From Peribolospora baueri (lineage: Eukaryota), in NCBI GenBank assembly GCA_029717555.1, contig JAMDHS010000105.1, forward strand, positions 1 to 64,000: DNA of 64,000 nt, in the 5' to 3' direction. The notes beneath the pieces are model-generated. The model made no database searches, had not been told where the DNA came from, and worked only from the letters and a program-made list of their open reading frames with translations. Shown one piece after another: positions 5,966-14,500 of this stretch (positions are counted from its first letter, which is position 1; the number at the start of each line of letters is the position of its first letter). Position numbers and translations under genes: made by a program.

Positions 5966-6468
5966 TGCTACATACATGCCCACTCCTTCCACCGCCCGGA
6001 TGGAGCCAAGGCCAAGGCCAAGGCCAACTCGCTTGGCCCGCCTTCTTTCCCCTTCCTCCGATTTCTTCCAGCCCTTGCCGCATACCCTTTCTCCCTGTCC
6101 TCCCTCTTGCCGCAGCACACCCTTCGTATAGCACTACCGCCAAGCAACCGTCAGTCAGCACGGCCGGCGTCCGGGTTCTATACAGAAGAGCAGAGCAGGT
6201 GCAGTCTGGATACCGAGGAGGCTGGAGCAGAGCAATGGGAGAACGTGCGCAACTATATGATGTGACCATGGACGGACGGACGGACGGCCCGTCGTCTATC
6301 TACGCGCCGCGAGCCAGCAGCCGATGATGGCCCGTGCCCATCCGTTCATCTTCTCTTCTCTTCGCCCAGTCCAAACACCATCCTCAGCCTTGCTTGGCCT
6401 CCAAAACGAAAAACATAAAGTAAAGTAGGCCATACACTTTCGTCTTTCACCTCGCCCTTGTGCCCCCT

Positions 6469-7567
6469 ATGGCCGACTCCGACTCCGATTCGGCCGCCGA
6501 CATCGACATCTTCGAGTCCTCCCTCGCCTCGCTCTTCCACCATCTCCCCGTCGCCTACGGTGATCCCGCCGGGACATTCGTATGGACGCCTCCCGATCGA
6601 GACAGACAGGGAGATCGCACGCGCCTGCCGTCGTCCGACCCCATCGTCCTCAAGCTCGCTTCGCCGCCCGGCGACAAGACGGCGCTGCAAGGTGAGTGCG
6701 CGGGCGATGGAGCGAGCGATGGAGCGATAAGAGAGCCAGCCAGCCAGTCCACCGGTCGAGCCATTCGCCTGACGTCTTGCATCGCATCGTCACATGCGCT
6801 CCGCTTCGTTTGCCCCAGCACACCACGTCTGGACAGCCAGCCTCTACCTCGCCTCCCTCCTCCTCGACCCTCCCCATCCCACCCATCCCTCCCCGTCCAT
6901 ATCCGTCCGCAACCTCCGCGTCGCAGAGCTAGGCGCCGGCGCAGGCCTCGCCGGCATCGCCGCCGCGAGAGCCGGAGCGAGGGAGGTGGTGGCGACGGAT
7001 TATCCGGACGAGACCATCTTGGATGCTCTATGTGCCAATTGGACGGCCAACGTGGGTCACCATGGCGAGCGCGCCACTTGTTGTACGTGGCAAGTGATGG
7101 GCCACGAGTGGGGCACCTCTGTCCAACCTCTTCTCCTCGCTCCTCGTCCCGCGCGACCCCGCCCATTCGACATCATCCTCCTCGCCGACGTCCTCTGGAT
7201 ATCCTCCCTCCACAAACCCCTCGTCTCCTCCCTACTTGGCCTCCTCCACCCCACACGCGGTCGCGCCTACCTCACCGCCGCACTCCACACCGGCCGCGCA
7301 CCGCTGCACCGCTTCGCCGCAGAGGTGGATAGGCAAGGCGGCGTCCTCTCGTGGAGAGGCGAGGCCAAGGCCAAGGCGGGCGCTTTTTTGGCCGGGGCCG
7401 GAGAGCGCGCGGAGTGGGAAGAGTATCGACCGCCTGTGGGCCGCGACGAGACCGCGGACGAGCAGAGAGGCGTCGTTGTTTTTTGCGAGGTCAGGCATAA
7501 GGCTTTTGTGGAGAGACGATGCGAGCGTGAATGCGAGTGCGAATACGAACGCGAATACGATGACTAG
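6469..7567 (+). CDS. Seven-beta-strand protein lysine/N-terminal methyltransferase, EFM7/NNT1-like (METTL21/MTF16 family)
   Basis: Exons 6469-6691 and 6819-7567 (GTGAGT...CCCCAG). The joined protein reads 'ALQAHHVWTASLYL', motif I 'VAELGAGAGLAG', 'VVATDYPD' and 'FDIILLADVLW'. Confidence 0.85.
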
Positions 7568-7675
7568 CCGTTTCGTCGACTTGTTTCTCGGACGGTGCAA
7601 GAACTAGCTAGTATCCATCCTCGGTTCGATGACGACACTCTTTAGCAATCCAATCCATCTTTCCACTCCTCTTCC

Positions 7676-9120
7676 TCAAGGCAATCGATACCTCACTCTA
7701 TCTGCTGCCAACAGAAACTCTTGCCCGCCTGCCCTCCCACCACCACCATGCCCCAACGCTTGCGCTTTCACCTCCTCTCCGACCTGCTGCGCCAGTCCGC
7801 CCCCGGCGCCCCCAGCGCTGAGCTCGTGCCACCCCAACGGCCCACAGTCGCAGTCGGCGCACGTGAGGTACTTGACCTTGGCCGACGGCCGGGAGGGGAC
7901 GGTGGCGTCTTTCGAGAAGCCTACGTTTTCGAACGATAGCGGCGAGGGGACCGAGAAGGCGGGCAGGAGTCCCGTCGTCGACGTCAACGATGGCGGCGCC
8001 GGCGAGTTGGCAAGCTTCAGGTTCGGATCGGCCAGCTAGGGGTGCGTGCGGTGCGCACCAAAAATGAAGGAAACCTCACGACTCGATCAGCACCGACGGC
8101 CGACCCCACCCGACTATCGCGGATGGATTCCCGTCGACTCACCGGCCATCCATCCCGTTCGACAAACTCAGCCGCTCCCTTGCGCACGAGCAAGCAGCCA
8201 CACTCCTCCCTCGGACAGAAGAGGTCCGCCCTGTTCGTCCATTTCCCGTCCGCGCCTTCCGTGATCAGCTCTTTCATCGAGCCTCCGAATGATCCTACCG
8301 GTTTGCCCGGGTTTCGAGACGGTCTAGCAGATTGCTGAGCTCGTAGGGCGGCCAGTGCCGCCTCGGCACTCAAGCCCGTGGGCGACCGGGACGACATCGA
8401 TGAATTTGGCGGGCCGTCGGAAGAAATCGAAGCGGACGACGTGCCGGACGAGAACTTGGAGAGCGGCAATCGCATCTCCCACCACGGTTCGCTGCCCCAC
8501 GCCACCGCGCTCCTCCCGCCATCCTGAAAGCCGACTTTTTCGTAGAACGGCTTGAGTTGGTCGTGAGCGAGCAGCGCCATCGCCTCGTACCCCTTCCCTC
8601 CCTCGGCGCCCTTCCGCCGCTCAGCTTCGGCCAGGCGCCGGACGTACTCTCCGATCAGGGCCCGGGCGATGCCGCGGCCTTGGTAGTAGGGCACGACTAC
8701 GAGGGAGTGCAAGCAGACGAGATGGGCGTCGGGGGAGGTGGAATGCTCAGACATGGACTCGAGCGTCAGCGCGGACGCCGCCGTGGAGATGGCGTGGCCG
8801 ATCAGCGTGCGGCCGGAGGACGGTGTGGGGACGTATGCGCCTAGGAAGAGGTCAGGGGCGTGCTTCTGTCTGTAACTGCAGTGGGAAAAGAACGAGACGG
8901 ATAACCGAACCGAGACCGGTCGTGTCGGCGACATTCCTTCCGAAGAGAGCAAATGACCGCCATCCATCGCCCCGCCGTGCGCTCACCGAAGTTTCTCCAA
9001 CGAGGCCGCCTCGTCCGGCGGGAAGCCTTGCGCCTCGATGCTGTGCGCAGCGTCCACCTCGTCCGGCGTGACGAGGTCAAAGAACAAGCCTTCGGGAAGG
9101 TTGGAAGACGTCGTCACCAT
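7676..9120 (-). CDS. GNAT acetyltransferase (PAA1/AANAT-like) fused to a C-terminal Mss4 (Rab GEF/chaperone) zinc-binding domain
   Basis: Exons 9120-8987, 8875-8143 and 8035-7676 splice in frame. GNAT motifs: 'IEAQGFPPDEAASLEKLRYR', 'VCLHSLVVVPYYQGRGIA', 'LKPFYEKVGF'. Mss4 motifs: 'NRADLFCPREECGCLL', 'FENVGFSK', 'KYLTCADCDCGPLGW', 'FLLAADRV'. Confidence 0.85.
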
Positions 9121-9981
9121 GAGGATCTGCTTCCTGACTCGTTCTCTCTGGTCGGGGAAGACGTGGAGCGAGAAGGGGCCGCCCTGTGCCAACCAATGTC
9201 ACGTGGCCGATCGGTTCATTATGCCAGCGGCGGGGTCGGAGTTCATCTATAGGATAAGGCGTGGCGAGCGGGGTGGAAGACGGCAGATGAGAACTTGGGA
9301 AAGGAGAGCACGACGTCGAGTCTCAACGTCACGGTTCGGTGGCGACAACGACGGCGACAACCAACGAACGCGTGCGGCGCATTTGGAACTCGTCCGTGTA
9401 AACAACGCTACATGTGCCCTAGGGAACTGGCACTACTTTGTGGGCCTCTGACAAACACGCACCGCCTCGCCCAGAGTATGCGTGGGAAGCCTCACCCAAT
9501 GCGGGACGGTGTTACATTCACTCCCACCAACGTCCCCTCTCCATGGACGAAGAGCGGTCCAGCCCCGGCGAGGAAGGTATGAAAGAAGCCTCCTTCCCCG
9601 CCTCCCCTATCTTCTCCCTCCATCCTCCACTACCAATCCTCTCCCACAAGCTTCGTCCTCCCCCCACTTTTCCATGACCGTCGCCGGAGGGCCTACTACT
9701 CTCTTCTTGTCTAGCTTTGTCAGGTTCCTCGCTCAGGTCCATCCTCTCCTTTGGACTGCCAAGTCACAACCTGCAACTGCTCTGGTGCCGACGCCCGAGT
9801 CTTTGGTGTCTTCGCCATCGTGTCGCGCCTGAAGATGCTCTATCCTGCCCTTCCCTTCCCACCTGTCGCCTTTCGCAAATCAGGTGAGTGTCTCGGGGCA
9901 TTTAGATTCAGGCCTTCTGCTCTCAGGAACGAAGACTCAACGTGTCTTGGTCCATACTATTGCAGATTGTCATCGATCTTC

Positions 9982-10188
9982 CGGAACTCGAGCTGGGCGG
10001 TGTGCGGCCCCTTGCGCACCACTTCCTCCATCCCTCCAGCCAGGCCGGCTCTTTTTCGAGCTCGGCCTGGGCCGCCCTTCGCAACACGGAACTCGAGCTC
10101 TGGGCGGTGTGCGGTCCCTGCGCACCACTTCCCCCATCCCTCCAGCCAGGTCGGCTCTTTTTCGAGCTCGGCCTGGCATCACAACACG
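9982..10188. repeat. Tandem direct duplication of ~105 bp, each copy containing a GC-rich hairpin
   Basis: Copies start CGGAACTCGAGC at 9982 and 10087 and are near-identical apart from small indels. Hairpins CCAGG(C/T)CG-GCTC...GAGC-T-CGGCCTGG at 10040-10070 and 10146-10176. Confidence 0.85.
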
Positions 10189-11347
10189 ACCTCGGTCGCG
10201 ACCCATCTTTGGGCCAGACGAACGTTCAGCGGCAATGGTGGCACCTGAGGAGCGACAGCGACCCGGATAGAGCATCGTCAAGCGTACCGCGATCGTGGGG
10301 ATGTTGAAGATTCCGGCGTCGGTGTCGGGGCATGCGCGGGGCGTGACGACGCAGTCCTGGAGGGGGTGGCAAGTAGTGAGGGACGCGGCAAGGCTGGACT
10401 TGGAGAGGGGAGGGGGCTAGCCAGTGACGGTTATGGTGAGTGGGGATGGGCAAGCGCTTGTGTGAATGGATTGACTGTCCGACTTCATGTTTCCCCCAGA
10501 AGGCGCCTTCGGGTTCCGTATGGAACGTGGACACGAGGGATGAAGAACCCCTCCCCCCTTTATTCTCCACTGATCCGACCTCGCCGACGTCAGCCTCCCT
10601 CCCCACCACCGATGATCCAACCTCTCCCTACCTTCCCTCCTCTCCATCACTGGTGATCCGAACTCTCCCCTCCCCCCCCCCTCCATTCTCATACCGTAGG
10701 AAAGATGAGTGCCTTTTAGCGTAGCTGCCCCTTCCCTCCCCCTCCTCCAAGTAGATGCAGACCATCCCCCTTTTCCCCCTCCAATTAGAAGCGGACCATT
10801 CCCCTCTCCCCCCTAGGTAGCAGAAACCCGGTCATCGTCTACCTTTTCCATTTTATATACCACATACTTCCCTGCAGTGTATATCCCATTAAATAGGAGT
10901 CGTTAATGATTACTGCTACTTTGGTTGACCTTCTATCGTCTCTGGCCTCGCACGAGCACACCCGCTGGTCTGATGCTTCGAATGCTTCTCACGAAAAGGA
11001 AAAGAATAGAATTATAAAAAATTCAATACATATTTTAATACTACTTAAAAAGGTCCTCCTTTGGCCGATCAACTTTCATTGCGAGGAGGAAGATTCCGTC
11101 CCATCACGAGTGAGTGAGGAGGTACGCAATCATGGGCTATGGGGAATGTGAACGGGCGTTAACTCGTTCACGTCATTTGCCCCCTCTGTGCGGGATGAGA
11201 TTGAAGTAGACGGCTTTTGGCAGAAAGGAGGGCAAACAATGCCTACGCTCACTCAATGGGCGGAAGGGAACCTTGCGCCGAGCGAGGTTCAAATCCAATT
11301 GGAAGGCGCTCGCCCACTTCTTTCCGGAGGTGTCTGGGACGGAAGAG

Positions 11348-11400
11348 ATTGGCAGAGCCCGCGACAAGTCACGTGACCAATCGTTCATTATATAATATTA
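11348..11400 (+). promoter_or_regulatory. Putative promoter of the sugar transporter: palindromic E-box flanked by CCAAT boxes, then a TATA-like element
   Basis: ATTGG at 11348-11352, GTCACGTGAC at 11368-11377, CCAAT at 11377-11381 and TATAATATTA at ~11391-11400, about 170-220 nt upstream of ATG 11570. Confidence 0.4.
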
Positions 11401-11569
11401 GGTCTAAAAGGCGGGGTGAGCTCCATATCGGGTGGGCGGCGCCGGCCATCTATCTGACTGCGAACACCACCACGTAATTCTTCTGTTTCGCCCCTCCACC
11501 TTCCATGGCCACGCAGCCTTCCCCCTCCATTACATTGCGTCTTGTTTCGTTACACCGTAGGATTTCACA

Positions 11570-14500
11570 ATGACGCCCCAAGAGCGCTTAAAAGCCGTCG
11601 TCCCACGGCTTCTCATGGTGACGCACAGCACCGGCTCCGCTGAGTCCGATCACGCGCTCAACGGCGATGCGCCCAAGCCTCCACCAGATGCGACTGTTTT
11701 CCCCCCACGGGAGGCAGACCCCACCTCGCTAGAGGACGCTGACGATGACGACGTCGGGTTGGAGCACGTGTTAGACGGCTTGGAGGGCGCGGGCGCGGGC
11801 GATGGCGATGGAGACGGCAAGGCGGGGGGTTGGTGGAAAAACAGGTTCTTGGCCAGGTTGACCGCCGTTGCCGGGCTGGGAGGTGAGCTCAACGTATTGA
11901 TGCTGCGGGCGTGGCTTTTCATGTGAGGTGCTCACTCCTTCTGTGCGGGTTTCACGTTGCGCTCGTTCTGCTTAGGCCTCGTGAGTCGCTCGCTCGGCGC
12001 TGCTCGGAGGAGGGTTTCAAGTTTCTTCCTCTGACTTTTACCGTATTTCTCCCGTTCTCTGGACTTTGACCAGATGTTTGGATGGGATACAGGTGCGAGG
12101 TTTGGCCAGGGTCACGGAGAGAGGATCCAGCTCTCATATCCTTGGCTCTATTTCTTTTCGCTTTACCCGTCCGCAGGTGTATGCGCCGGCGTACTTGTCT
12201 CCGTCGGCTCGGATTTGGGACATGCGGTGAGCCTTTTTCCGTCAGTCATCCCAACCTTCTCTCGGTCCTCATTATTGTTTTCCCTTTTAACCTCGCACTC
12301 GATTGCTCACAGCTCTCCCCCGCCGAACAAGAGCTCCTTGTGTCCGCGACCACGGTAGGCGCCATCTTCGGCGCTTTGGCTGCTGGGAGGTTATCGGACT
12401 GGATCGGACGCAAGATGGTGCTCGTCATTAGCAGCGTGTTTTTCTTGCTCGGGGCGGTCGAGCAGAGCGCCGCAAACATCTTGAAAGAGGTAAGGCACAG
12501 TTACTCGGTGAGGAAGGTCGCCCTTTCTGACCTGCATCGTTCTTCGCGCAGATCATCGTAGGACGAGTTATTGTCGGCCTAGGTACGTATGCTCATGGAT
12601 GGCGTTGGCCTCAGGTCTGCTGGCTGGCTCACGTCTCTGTCGCTTTAGGTGTCGGACTGGCATCCGTCGTAGTTCCCATCTATCTTGCAGAAATCAGTCC
12701 CCCATCAGTCCGAGGGCAGATCGTCTCGCTCAACGTCGTCCTCGTCACTGGTGGACAGGTAGCGGCCTATGTGCTTGACTCGATCCTATATCACGTTCCG
12801 CATGGCTGGCGGTGGATGGTCCTTGTGAGTTCGAACGTAGCGAATAAGCCGTGGTTCCTTCTGGAGTCGAAGATTGATGCGACTTGTATTTTTATAGGCG
12901 GGCGGGGTTCCTGCGATTGCTCAGATGGTTGGCCTTTACCGTTTACACGAATCACCGGTACGCAGCAACTTGAGTCTTTCTAAGTACTGCTCATGCGCGT
13001 CTTTTCGCATCGCTAACATAGCCCCCGATCCTTGTCCGCCTACATCACAGCGGTGGGATATCGCCAACGACCGCGTCGACCACGCGCGAAACACCCTCTC
13101 CCTCATCTTCCCAGAGGCGACGCCCGCGCAAATTGACCGCCAGATAGAACTTGTCCAACGGAGCTTACACGGCCGCGGCACGCACGGGGGGATCAGGTTG
13201 CATGAGAGGACGGGCAAGCTCCGCTTGCTGTTCAGGGAGCCGAGCAACCGGAAGGCACTCATGATCGCTTGCATGCTTCAGCTGTTCCAACAGGCCACGG
13301 GCTTCAAGTGAGTTCAGATCAGATTGCTGTTTGGATATCATCAATGTCTCATTCAGCACTCACACACGCCCTCTCTCCTCCTTTTTGTCCAAAGCTCACT
13401 CATGTGAGGTGCAGGCCCGGCTTTATAGGTAACAGTAAACTGTAGAAGACCGATACTGATATATATTTCACATTTTGTGCTCATTGTCTCAGGTATTACT
13501 CTTCCAAGGTGCTTCAAATGGCCGGTTTCGAGAGCAACCCGAACACGGCAGCGATCGGAGTCGCCCTTGCCAACTGGATCGGCACGATCGTCGCCCTCAA
13601 ATACATCGATCGGGTGGGAAGGCGAAGAATGCTGTAAGTGGATACGCCGTATCGAGGACTCTCGGCATGTTCTTCGGTGACCGTATGGCTTGCATATTGG
13701 CTGAATGATTCTGACTGGCGATCTCATCGTGTCCGCTGTCAGACTCTGGACTCTCGTCGGCATGATGATAGGCCTTTTCTTCCTCGGCCTCTCATTCCAG
13801 TTCATCCATCTTCGCGAGACCAGCCTGGACACAAAGCCGCCCTCGTCCCCTGAGATTTTGAACTCGACCCTTTCTACGCCGAACGGGACTGATTTAAACG
13901 ATGCGTCTGCTAGATCCTCGACCGTTACCGCCGCCGTTCGAACATTGCTGACGGCCGTCCGAACAGAGGTAGAGGCTGCAGCACGGTCAGGCGGCGGTGG
14001 CAGCGGGGGTCTATGGACGTGGATCTGCCTCTTGTCCATGATCTTTTTCTGCTCGTCGTTCGCCCTCGGCCTGGGCAACGTTCCGTGGCTCGTCATGAGC
14101 GAGATCTTCCCGAACAACGTCAGAGGTATCGGCTCCGGGTTCGCGACGGGTGAGCCTTCTATCCCGCTTCGGAGGGACTGGCCTGGCCGTCTTGCCTCGT
14201 CATCATATTGTTTTTGTTGACGTTCGGGCCGGTTCCTCGTGTGCTACGCTTGCTAGGCACCAATTGGCTCGCGAACCTCGTCGTCGCTGCGACGTATCTG
14301 CATCTCGTCCAAGGTGAGCGCCTGCCTGCAGCCCATTCTCTCGCCTCAGCCTGCCTGCTGATAGTCCTTCCATTCCATGTATGTTATGCTGTGGCACAGC
14401 AATCACCGCGAGCGGCACTTTCTGGCTCTACTGTGCCATATCTGGACTCGTGAGTTAGATTGTCCTAAAGTAGGCTGTTCAAATGGCCCGGTTTGGCTGA

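What the first reader, a model, noticed from the sequence alone, without database searches (positions are those of the whole stretch)
7676..9120. Acetyltransferase-Mss4 fusion: a small-amine GNAT joined to a Rab-GTPase chaperone/GEF domain
Seen in sequence: three exons with canonical GT-AG introns (8876-8986 and 8036-8142) give one frame. The GNAT-to-Mss4 junction, a Ser-rich linker, lies inside a single exon, so it is not a gene-model artefact. Both Mss4 zinc-ligand pairs (CPREEC, CADC) and the GNAT acetyl-CoA loop (QGRGIA) are intact. Established: in S. cerevisiae PAA1 (polyamine/arylalkylamine acetyltransferase) and DSS4 (Mss4 family, acts on Sec4) are separate genes in unrelated pathways. 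Inference: the fusion could couple acetylation of polyamines or proteins to exocytic Rab handling. I recall similar architectures in basidiomycete annotations but know of no functional study.
Basis: partly seen in the sequence, partly recalled or inferred. Interest (0 to 1): 0.72.

Follow-up and report, generated by a model that had tools for sequence, protein, structure and literature searches.

The report
Conserved basidiomycete acetyltransferase–Mss4 fusion gene
This is a real three-exon fungal gene that joins a serotonin/polyamine-type acetyltransferase to an Mss4/Dss4 Rab-chaperone domain, an architecture already annotated in many basidiomycete genomes, with no functional study found in the papers searched.

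Summary
On the minus strand, exons 9120-8987, 8875-8143 and 8035-7676 (GT..AG introns of 111 and 107 nt) give one 408-aa frame.

- **Domains:** Exon 2 matches three GNAT Pfam families above their cut-offs. Exon 3 matches Mss4 (PF04421, E 1.1e-11). The nearest solved relatives are serotonin N-acetyltransferase and Mss4.
- **Gene model:** The spliced protein aligns end to end with full-length fusion proteins, across both junctions.
- **Distribution:** The fusion is not rare. All 120 listed relatives carry PF04421, and 118 of them also carry a GNAT family. They come from Agaricomycetes and Dacrymycetes. Long versions occur in Ustilaginomycotina. The window's protein is a compact Ustilaginomycotina-type member.
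- **Splitting:** Some Agaricales encode the Mss4 unit, including a conserved linker motif, as a separate protein. The covalent link therefore looks dispensable.
- **Outside the phylum:** The named non-basidiomycete GNAT relatives (Mortierella, Funneliformis) stand alone.
- **Literature:** Four searches found no paper on the fusion.

Most likely this is a two-function protein, a small-amine acetyltransferase plus the lineage's Dss4-type Rab holdase. Any coupling between the two halves is untested. Interest is moderate: a new member of a database-known, unstudied architecture.

The parts
8987..9120 (-). Exon 1 (134 nt; Met1 to the first two bases of codon 45). It encodes the N-terminal part of the GNAT domain, including the DEAAS motif (residues 36-40).
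   Evidence: It aligns with the N-termini of 14 full-length fusions.
8876..8986 (-). Intron 1, 111 nt, GTGAGC...CAG.
   Evidence: Removing it restores the conserved RYRQ motif.
8143..8875 (-). Exon 2 (733 nt). It holds the rest of the GNAT domain, the whole linker, and the start of the Mss4 domain with the first zinc pair.
   Evidence: (GNAT Pfam families).
8461..9120 (-). GNAT (AANAT/PAA1-like) domain coding span, residues 1-183, interrupted by intron 1. The acetyl-CoA loop QGRGIA lies at 8665-8682. Cys99/His101 and Tyr156 sit at the positions of the AANAT catalytic residues.
   Evidence: The standalone Mortierella GNAT (186 aa) matches 9120..8461 by tblastn. AANAT alignment. Conserved columns.
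8239..8460 (-). Linker, residues 184-257, Ser-rich (18 S in 74 residues).
   Evidence: This stretch is variable in the alignments.
8305..8358 (-). Conserved linker motif ALAALRAQQSARPSRNPG (residues 218-235). It is the counterpart of 'GLWEALQ.SS.R.RP' in Agaricomycetes and of 'AAL..Q...RNPG' in Ustilaginomycotina.
   Evidence: Predicted helix 179-191 in the model of P0005. Standalone Mss4 units start just before this motif.
8036..8142 (-). Intron 2, 107 nt, GTGAGT...TAG. It lies in the variable loop of the Mss4 domain.
   Evidence: The Ceraceosorus orthologue bridges the junction. The nearest relative, P0004, reads into an intron at the same place.
7676..8035 (-). Exon 3 (360 nt including the stop TGA at 7676-7678). 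It encodes the core of the Mss4 domain: FENVGF at 7916-7933, the CADC zinc pair at 7850-7861, and a roughly 29-aa insert after GPLGW.
   Evidence: PF04421, E 1.1e-11; Mss4 structures, E about 8e-7. The insert is shared with Ustilaginomycotina.
8200..8217 (-). First zinc-ligand pair, CPREEC (Cys265, Cys270).
   Evidence: These align to invariant Cys columns of the 110 fusions.

Best explanation
Shown:
- Window 7676-9120 (minus strand) is one three-exon gene for a 408-aa protein.
- Its N-terminal 183 residues are a GNAT acetyltransferase of the non-vertebrate AANAT / yeast Paa1 kind.
- Its C-terminal roughly 150 residues are a Mss4/Dss4-family zinc domain.
- The two are joined by a Ser-rich linker that contains one conserved helical motif.
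- The same co-linear architecture occurs in Agaricomycotina and Ustilaginomycotina. The window's copy is a compact member of the Ustilaginomycotina type.

Inferred:
- The fusion arose in an early basidiomycete and has been kept since.
- The Mss4 half is the lineage's Dss4 orthologue. It should act as a holdase/weak exchange factor for nucleotide-free exocytic Rabs of the Sec4/Ypt type.
- The GNAT half should acetylate small amines, polyamines first and arylalkylamines second, using acetyl-CoA.
- The two halves fold and act autonomously. The link provides 1:1 co-expression and perhaps places the acetyltransferase at Rab-bearing secretory membranes, rather than building a new composite active site.
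For: - Gene model and frame.
- Domain identity: GNAT families and PF04421 all score above their curated cut-offs. The closest solved sequences are serotonin N-acetyltransferase (E 3e-4) and Mss4 (E 7.5e-7).
- Structure of a relative: the AlphaFold model of the Ceratobasidium relative P0005 (pLDDT 91.9) matches serotonin N-acetyltransferase best (E 4e-14, TM 0.89). It also matches Mss4 1hxr (E 2e-7, TM 0.75).
- Integrity: the window keeps 20 of 22 invariant columns and 72 of 95 columns that are at least 90% conserved in 110 fusions. The kept residues include His101, Tyr156, the four zinc Cys and F-E-N.
- Conservation: 120 of 120 listed relatives carry PF04421, and 118 of these also carry a GNAT family. 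Of 27 long relatives, 21 carry PF04421. The named long ones are Ceraceosorus, Thecaphora, Exobasidium, Parajaminaea, Tilletia and Tilletiaria.
- Indirect evidence for single transcripts (inference): 18 of the 120 listed relatives (JGI, Logan or ENA records without a species name) are uninterrupted ORFs of 261-370 aa with both domains, on contigs of only 1.1-2.3 kb. Assembled spliced mRNAs explain this best.
- Autonomy: pTM is only 0.58 despite pLDDT 91.9. Standalone Mss4 units (22 of 120 aa or more) and a standalone GNAT exist in some Agaricales. On a tree they nest among fused orthologues, for example Gloeophyllum with Neolentinus and Heliocybe (support 100).
- One Mss4 per species: none of the 31 short Mss4 hits comes from a species among the 120 listed fusions.
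- Outside Basidiomycota, the named GNAT relatives (Mortierella 186 aa, Funneliformis 182 aa) are standalone.
- Function of the homologues: Paa1 acetylates polyamines, with spermine cited as the main in vivo substrate, and weakly acetylates arylalkylamines (passages of PMC10220653). Mss4/Dss4 act mainly as chaperones of nucleotide-free exocytic Rabs (passages of PMC6767298).
Against: - No transcript evidence exists for this organism, and no whole genome is held. A second Mss4 or Paa1 gene therefore cannot be excluded.
- The window replaces the two Trp of the otherwise invariant 'WW-L-V' strand (T310/G311 in the alignment). It also has extra Cys next to both zinc pairs, so its Mss4 half is divergent.
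- The first His of the vertebrate AANAT His pair is Cys here, as in 104 of 110 fusions.
- Long retention of the fusion in two subphyla argues for some functional link beyond co-expression. That fits less well with fully autonomous halves.
- The conserved linker motif stays with the Mss4 unit even when the gene is split. Its role is unexplained.
- The 'one Mss4 per species' point rests on a word-seeded search with only 32 candidates, and on 120 of 263 fusion hits being visible.
- Neither enzymatic activity nor Rab binding was tested.
Confidence: 0.6

Rival explanations
1. Direct enzymatic coupling. The Mss4 half is a substrate-recruiting module. It holds a partly unfolded, nucleotide-free exocytic Rab, or a Rab-associated protein, and the GNAT half acetylates it on a lysine or at the N-terminus. 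Secretion would then respond to acetyl-CoA.
For: - The fusion has been kept in two basidiomycete subphyla.
- A conserved linker motif could position the halves.
- GNAT folds of protein N-terminal acetyltransferases are the next-best structural matches after AANAT (Naa50, Naa10; E about 1e-8).
Against: - The GNAT half is clearly nearest to small-amine AANAT enzymes (E 4e-14 against about 1e-8).
- No confident inter-domain packing is predicted (pTM 0.58).
- Natural splitting of the gene in several Agaricales shows the tether is dispensable.
- No acetylation data exist.
Confidence: 0.13
2. The Mss4-like half no longer binds Rabs. It serves as a zinc-stabilised regulatory or dimerisation domain of the acetyltransferase, and the Dss4 function is lost or supplied elsewhere.
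For: - The window lacks the conserved Trp pair and carries lineage-specific inserts in the Mss4 half.
- DSS4 is non-essential in yeast (recalled).
Against: - The most conserved Mss4 family elements are all kept: FENVGF, the CxxC-GPxGW knuckle and four Cys.
- PF04421 scores twice its cut-off on exon 3 alone.
- Standalone orthologues of this very unit exist. That fits an independent Mss4-type function.
Confidence: 0.1
3. Gene-model artefact. Two neighbouring genes (a GNAT and a Mss4) are wrongly read as one.
For: - Some species have the two halves annotated separately.
- No RNA data exist for this organism.
Against: - There is no stop codon between the domains. GNAT end, linker and first zinc pair lie in one exon and one frame.
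- The same continuous frame occurs in 118 of 120 listed relatives.
- It also occurs in intron-free short contigs that look like transcripts.
- No excess of Met codons upstream of the linker motif was found: 19 of 110 against about 20% expected.
Confidence: 0.03

Closest known systems
Basidiomycete GNAT-Mss4 proteins in public databases. Examples: Ceraceosorus bombacis CEH18902.1 ('Arylalkylamine N-acetyltransferase', 842 aa), Thecaphora frezii KAN0066427.1 (677 aa), and Ceratobasidium/Rhizoctonia/Trametes 'acyl-CoA N-acyltransferase' or 'Mss4-like protein' entries of 330-390 aa.
   Same: - Co-linear GNAT, linker motif and Mss4 architecture.
- Shared with the Ustilaginomycotina type: the RNPG motif, CPREECGC, the stretch 'GPL..NL.L.NSPAPPS' across the exon 2/3 junction, and the roughly 29-aa insert after GPLGW.
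- 39-55% identity over the matched stretch (mostly the GNAT half, some into the linker) to the nearest representatives.
   Different: - The window's protein is compact at 408 aa. It lacks the 60-100-aa K/E/S-rich insert before VKYL and the 'ALEARL' segment of named Ustilaginomycotina members.
- It is only 35% identical to the Agaricomycete form.
- It lacks their WW pair.
Yeast Paa1 / non-vertebrate AANAT family (arylalkylamine and polyamine N-acetyltransferases); vertebrate serotonin N-acetyltransferase structures 1cjw, 1b6b, 1l0c.
   Same: - GNAT fold.
- These are the best sequence matches in the PDB (E 3e-4) and the best structural matches of the relative's model (TM 0.89).
- The acetyl-CoA loop, plus the His and Tyr aligned to the AANAT catalytic residues (residue roles recalled).
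   Different: - Paa1 and AANAT are single-domain proteins.
- The first His of the vertebrate His pair is Cys here.
- The substrate of the fused enzyme is unknown.
Mss4 / RABIF / yeast Dss4 (Rab holdase chaperone and weak GEF; structures 1hxr, 1fwq, 2fu5).
   Same: - PF04421 match.
- Four zinc Cys; the second pair aligns exactly to C-A-D-C of Mss4.
- The FENVGF motif.
- Fold match of the relative's model.
   Different: - It is fused behind an enzyme.
- The first zinc pair is Cx4C. This is as in my recollection of Dss4, whereas the recalled Mss4 form is CxxC.
- There is an extra N-terminal helix motif and a lineage-specific insert in the last hairpin.
- Rab binding was not tested.

Membership tests
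GNAT superfamily (Pfam clan of Acetyltransf_1/7/10) | Profile match above the curated gathering score | tested here: met
   on the exon 2 translation: Acetyltransf_7 35.2 bits against 27, Acetyltransf_10 29.7 against 23.6, Acetyltransf_1 21.8 against 20.7.
GNAT superfamily | Acetyl-CoA binding loop Q/R-x-x-G-x-G/A (motif A; definition recalled) | tested here: met
   QGRGIA at residues 110-115, inside the Pfam-matched stretch.
GNAT superfamily | GNAT fold | tested here: met
   Tested only on the relative P0005 (33-35% identical to the window). Model pLDDT 91.9. The top 5 Foldseek matches are serotonin N-acetyltransferase chains. The spliced window protein itself could not be handed to the folding tool.
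AANAT / Paa1-type amine N-acetyltransferases | Closest characterised relatives are AANAT-family enzymes | tested here: met
   the five best PDB sequences are all serotonin/arylalkylamine N-acetyltransferase (E 3e-4 to 1.4e-3). In one search these rank 1-5. A source names the Ceraceosorus orthologue 'Arylalkylamine N-acetyltransferase'.
AANAT / Paa1-type amine N-acetyltransferases | Catalytic His pair and Tyr (vertebrate AANAT His120/His122/Tyr168; numbering recalled) | tested here: inconclusive
   In the alignment the second His matches window His101 and the Tyr matches Tyr156, while the first His is Cys99. The His column is invariant in the 110 fusions (H97). The Cys is shared by 104 of 110, and the Tyr column is at least 90% conserved. 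PMC2897805 (passages) lists the His pair among the vertebrate-specific features.
AANAT / Paa1-type amine N-acetyltransferases | Acetyl-CoA-dependent acetylation of polyamines or arylalkylamines | not testable with these tools
   This needs an enzyme assay.
Mss4 / Dss4 family (PF04421) | Profile match above the gathering score | tested here: met
   45.3 bits against 22.6, E 1.1e-11, on exon 3 alone (profile positions 51-91 of 104).
Mss4 / Dss4 family (PF04421) | Two Cys pairs that bind one zinc ion | tested here: met
   Cys265/Cys270 and Cys348/Cys351 fall in the four invariant Cys columns of the 110 fusions. CADC aligns to C-A-D-C of Mss4 chains 2fu5, 1fwq and 1hxr. Metal binding itself was not tested.
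Mss4 / Dss4 family (PF04421) | Mss4 fold | tested here: met
   Tested only on the relative P0005: 1hxr_A, E 2e-7, TM (target) 0.75, 30% identity.
Mss4 / Dss4 family (PF04421) | Binding of nucleotide-free exocytic Rab and nucleotide release | not testable with these tools
This needs a pull-down or exchange assay.
Basidiomycete GNAT-Mss4 fusion proteins | Co-linear full-length alignment with both domains and the linker motif | tested here: met
   The window keeps 72 of 95 highly conserved columns.

The most novel reading that the evidence does not exclude
The fusion may be a metabolic gate on secretion that is specific to Basidiomycota. The Mss4 unit would capture a nucleotide-free Sec4-type Rab through its zinc domain and the conserved linker helix. 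It would present that Rab, or its vesicle cargo of polyamines, to the tethered AANAT-like acetyltransferase. Acetyl-CoA or polyamine status would then directly set exocytic Rab availability or acetyl-polyamine export at the growing hyphal tip.
Probability: 0.12. Interest if true: 0.75.

Novelty: new member of a known kind. Interest (0 to 1): 0.4.

Why it matters
A domain fusion kept in two basidiomycete subphyla works as a 'Rosetta stone' hint. It suggests that small-amine or polyamine acetylation and exocytic Rab chaperoning are functionally linked in these fungi. In yeast and animals the two activities sit in separate genes and unrelated pathways.

The family is large, yet no paper on it was found in the searches made here. 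It also comes with natural split variants that would serve as ready-made controls, so the link is cheaply testable in model mushrooms.

For this window alone the finding is ordinary. It is one more member of the family, compact and divergent.

Tried and rejected
- **RNA evidence.** No RNA holder was listed for 7600-9250, so the read-laying tool was not used.
- **Whole-genome check.** No genome is held for this window. A search for a second Mss4 or GNAT copy was possible only inside the 64-kb window, where tblastn found none.
- **Complex prediction.** I planned to dock the GNAT half against the linker plus Mss4 half of alignment A1. The queue was full, then the tool was declared not available. 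Nothing was folded.
- **Internal start codon.** I tested whether a conserved Met before the linker motif could give a separate Mss4 isoform. Only 19 of 110 fusions have a Met in the 16 residues upstream, against about 20% expected by composition. Rejected.
- **14-3-3 site.** I tested for a 14-3-3 mode-1 site (R[ST]x[ST]xP) in the linker, by analogy with vertebrate AANAT regulation. It occurs in 1 of 110 fusions and not in the window. Rejected.
- **Hidden intron.** By eye, I checked whether the Gly-rich insert after GPLGW hides an intron. The candidate GT..AG spans are 43-55 nt and out of frame, and they would destroy the conserved C-terminus. The insert is also shared with Ustilaginomycotina orthologues. 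Rejected.
- **Protein atlas.** It gave only generic GNAT and Mss4 clusters, with scores of 0.93 or less and 0.89 or less.
- **Earlier scan findings.** Nothing was returned.
- **Papers.** The Itzen 2006 Mss4:Rab8 paper is not held, so Rab-contact residues could not be checked one by one. Literature search was badly framed: among its 10 listed papers (of 5,955 matching) none contained Dss4, so it is not used as evidence.
- **Tree.** The careful tree search did not finish. Only the quick tree is reported.
Full report
**Observation.**
- Reading the minus strand of 7300-9500 confirms every coordinate of the finding.
- The ATG at 9120 is the first in-frame ATG after a stop.
- Intron 1 runs 8986-8876 (111 nt, GTGAGC...CAG). 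Intron 2 runs 8142-8036 (107 nt, GTGAGT...TAG). The stop TGA is at 7678-7676.
- Joining the exons in a script gives 1227 nt and 408 aa, with no stop other than the terminal one.
- Exon 2 (733 nt; translation P0001) contains the larger part of the GNAT domain, the whole Ser-rich linker (18 Ser in 74 residues) and the first Mss4 zinc pair, all in one open frame. The domain junction therefore does not depend on any splice prediction.

**Domain identity.**
- Pfam on the separate exon translations gives four matches, all above the curated cut-offs:

| Exon | Pfam family | E-value |
|---|---|---|
| 2 | Acetyltransf_7 | 1.6e-8 |
| 2 | Acetyltransf_10 | 7e-7 |
| 2 | Acetyltransf_1 | 2.4e-4 |
| 3 | Mss4 (PF04421) | 1.1e-11 |

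- Exon 1 alone (44 aa) matches nothing.
- Against solved structures, the five best sequence hits of exon 2 are serotonin/arylalkylamine N-acetyltransferase chains (E 3e-4 to 1.4e-3).
- Exon 3 hits the three Mss4 structures 2fu5, 1fwq and 1hxr (E about 8e-7). FENVGF and C-A-D-C-x-x-G-P-x-G-W-H align residue by residue.
- In the AANAT alignment, window His101 and Tyr156 fall on the second catalytic His and the catalytic Tyr. The first His is Cys99 (residue roles recalled). PMC2897805 passages list the His pair as a vertebrate-type feature.

**Gene model checked by homology.**
- The spliced protein aligns from Met1 to the C-terminus with 14 full-length fusion proteins.
- The exon 1/2 junction recreates the conserved RYRQ motif.
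- The exon 2/3 junction lies in a variable loop. It is bridged by the Ustilaginomycotina-type stretch 'GPL..NL.L.NSPAPPS'. tblastn with the Ceraceosorus protein also bridges it: residues 606-639 match 8238-8137 and residues 638-709 match 8035-7904.
- The nearest relative, P0004, comes from an unnamed assembly and is 48% identical. A gene caller that ignores introns read it into an intron at the same position.
- The window retains 20 of 22 invariant columns and 72 of 95 columns that are at least 90% conserved in an alignment of 110 fusions.
- That alignment used 110 of the 120 listed hits. Ten partial or odd-length rows were left out: P0007, P0011, P0015, P0017-P0020, P0054, P0062 and P0084.
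- Losses include the Trp pair of 'WWLV' and Ser-to-Cys after the first zinc pair. The Ustilaginomycotina type has 'FWTV' and the window has 'AFSV' at that place.

**Distribution.**
- *Word-seeded search with exon 2.* It found only two relatives, because the window's protein is divergent.
- *Search with the Ceratobasidium fusion P0005.* It found 263 proteins (E at most 1e-3). Among the 120 listed, all carry PF04421 and 118 also carry a GNAT family.
  - The named sources are Agaricomycetes from Cantharellales to Agaricales, plus Calocera (Dacrymycetes).
  - They are annotated 'acyl-CoA N-acyltransferase', 'N-acetyltransferase domain-containing protein' or 'Mss4-like protein'.
- *Exhaustive phmmer of exon 2 against 1.84 billion representatives.* It gave 718 hits (E at most 1e-3), 208 (at most 1e-10) and 16 (at most 1e-30).
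  - Of 27 long hits (469-1261 aa), 21 have a C-terminal PF04421.
  - Named long fusions are from Ceraceosorus, Thecaphora, Exobasidium, Parajaminaea, Tilletia and Tilletiaria, that is, Ustilaginomycotina.
- *Position of the window's protein.* It shares the derived features of this group: RNPG, CPREECGC, and the roughly 29-aa 'GGLA..VGE' insert after GPLGW. It lacks their large K/E/S-rich insert, so it is a compact member.
- *Outside Basidiomycota.* The named GNAT relatives are standalone: Mortierella 186 aa and Funneliformis 182 aa.
- *Not resolved.* Pucciniomycotina and Tremellomycetes were not resolved.
- *Age of the fusion.* It is at least as old as the split of Agaricomycotina and Ustilaginomycotina (inference).

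**Split forms.**
- A search for short proteins with the Mss4 part of P0005 found 31 hits (32 candidates), all PF04421. Twenty-two of them are at least 120 aa.
- They come from Collybiopsis, Gymnopus, Lentinula, Marasmius, Tetrapyrgos, Dendrothele, Amanita, Rhizopogon, Pisolithus, Exidia, Gloeophyllum, Infundibulicybe, two Mycena species and others. None is a species among the 120 listed fusions.
- Most start 'MS..' just upstream of the conserved motif '[LIVM]P.GLWEALQ.SS.R.RP'. One is a complete ORF from a transcriptome collection (P0135). The Gloeophyllum entry starts at the Met of the GNAT motif 'EMR' and looks like a truncated model.
- Marasmius fiardii has a separate 173-aa GNAT and a separate Mss4 fragment.
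- A quick maximum-likelihood tree was built from 51 Mss4 units: 30 of the 110 fusions, 20 of the 31 short proteins, and the window.
  - The standalone forms nest among fused orthologues along taxonomic lines. Examples are Gloeophyllum with Neolentinus and Heliocybe (support 100), the Boletales together, and a marasmioid group of nine.
  - The tree needs 8 changes of the label, at least 2 of them forced by well-supported branches.
  - The careful search did not finish, most forks are weak, and the window sits on a long branch.
- Reading: these are orthologues, not a second paralogue. The gene was split, or was annotated as split, several times. The linker motif belongs to the Mss4 unit.

**Structure.**
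- AlphaFold2 on P0005 with the 110-row alignment gives pLDDT 91.9 but pTM 0.58. The motif forms a helix (179-191) of middling confidence.
- I read this as two well-defined domains without a fixed mutual orientation. That is an inference, because no error map was available.
- Foldseek puts serotonin N-acetyltransferase first (E 4e-14, TM 0.89), protein N-terminal acetyltransferases next (about 1e-8), and Mss4 1hxr at rank 34 (E 2e-7, TM 0.75).
- The spliced window protein could not be submitted, so the fold evidence is for a relative 33-35% identical to it.

**Mechanism.**
- Shown: both halves are intact members of their families, and the fusion is conserved.
- Established for the homologues:
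  - Paa1 acetylates polyamines, with spermine cited as the main in vivo substrate, and has weak arylalkylamine activity (PMC10220653, passages).
  - Mss4/Dss4 bind nucleotide-free exocytic Rabs and act mainly as holdase chaperones with weak exchange activity (PMC6767298, passages).
- Inferred:
  - The protein carries both activities.
  - The Mss4 half is the lineage's Dss4.
  - The halves work autonomously, with the tether giving co-expression and possibly co-localisation.
- Direct coupling, in which a Rab or its cargo is the acetylation substrate, cannot be excluded and is the most interesting reading. The AANAT-like pocket, the loose domain arrangement and the natural splits speak against it.

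**Rejected ideas.** These were a conserved internal start codon, a 14-3-3 site in the linker, and a hidden intron in the C-terminal insert (by eye).

**Literature.**
- Four searches found no paper that treats this fusion:
  - Mss4 + acetyltransferase + fusion gave 11 papers; none of the 10 listed concerned the fusion, judged by title and abstract.
  - PF04421 / IPR007515 / 'Mss4-like protein' gave 12 papers.
  - Dss4 + basidiomyc* gave 3 papers, unrelated by title and abstract.
  - Mss4 + GNAT + Rab gave 0 papers.
- The AANAT evolution paper notes basidiomycete AANAT homologues but contains neither 'Mss4' nor 'fused'.
- Subscription journals are largely outside the library.

**Verdict.** Functional coupling is untested. 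This is a new, compact, divergent member of a database-known but unstudied fusion family. Interest is 0.4.

Noticed in passing
window 6424-7567 (+ strand): There is a convergent downstream gene whose ORFs end about 110 nt from the stop of the fusion gene. The translation contains 'VAELGAGAGLAGIAAARAGAREVVATDYPD', which looks like a class I SAM-dependent methyltransferase motif. This is judged by eye; no profile was run.
   Followed up: no
window 9200-11500: The roughly 2.3 kb upstream of the gene has no clean long ORF. Overlapping ORFs at 9715-10307 repeat similar peptide stretches (for example 'PSSQ.GSFSSSAW' and 'RPGWRDGGSGAQG' on the other strand), which suggests a direct DNA repeat in the intergenic region. 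GC drops to 0.48-0.53 around 10600-11400.
   Followed up: no
window 12070-13311 (+ strand): ORFs here contain 'GRKMVLVISSVFFLLGA' and 'PIYLAEISPPSVRGQIVSLN'. They look like a major-facilitator sugar-transporter gene with introns (by eye).
   Followed up: no
related proteins P0125-P0146, P0206 (Agaricales and others): There are natural split versions of the fusion. The standalone Mss4 units keep the linker motif at their N-terminus, most clearly in a marasmioid group (Collybiopsis, Gymnopus, Lentinula, Marasmius, Tetrapyrgos, Dendrothele). In Marasmius fiardii the GNAT and the Mss4 fragment are separate records whose longest contigs have different lengths.
   Followed up: partly
related proteins P0159, P0163, P0189, P0216, P0218, P0239, P0290 (Ustilaginomycotina): The same fusion is inflated to 677-1261 aa by low-complexity inserts in the linker and inside the Mss4 domain (between FSKD and VKYL). 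The folded cores stay conserved.
   Followed up: partly
literature, PMC11682019: A transcriptome paper on the basidiomycete yeast Xanthophyllomyces dendrorhous reports a UV-induced 'MSS4-like protein'. It explains it with the unrelated yeast MSS4 phosphatidylinositol-4-phosphate 5-kinase. This looks like a name collision. Whether that gene belongs to the family studied here was not checked (passages).
   Followed up: no
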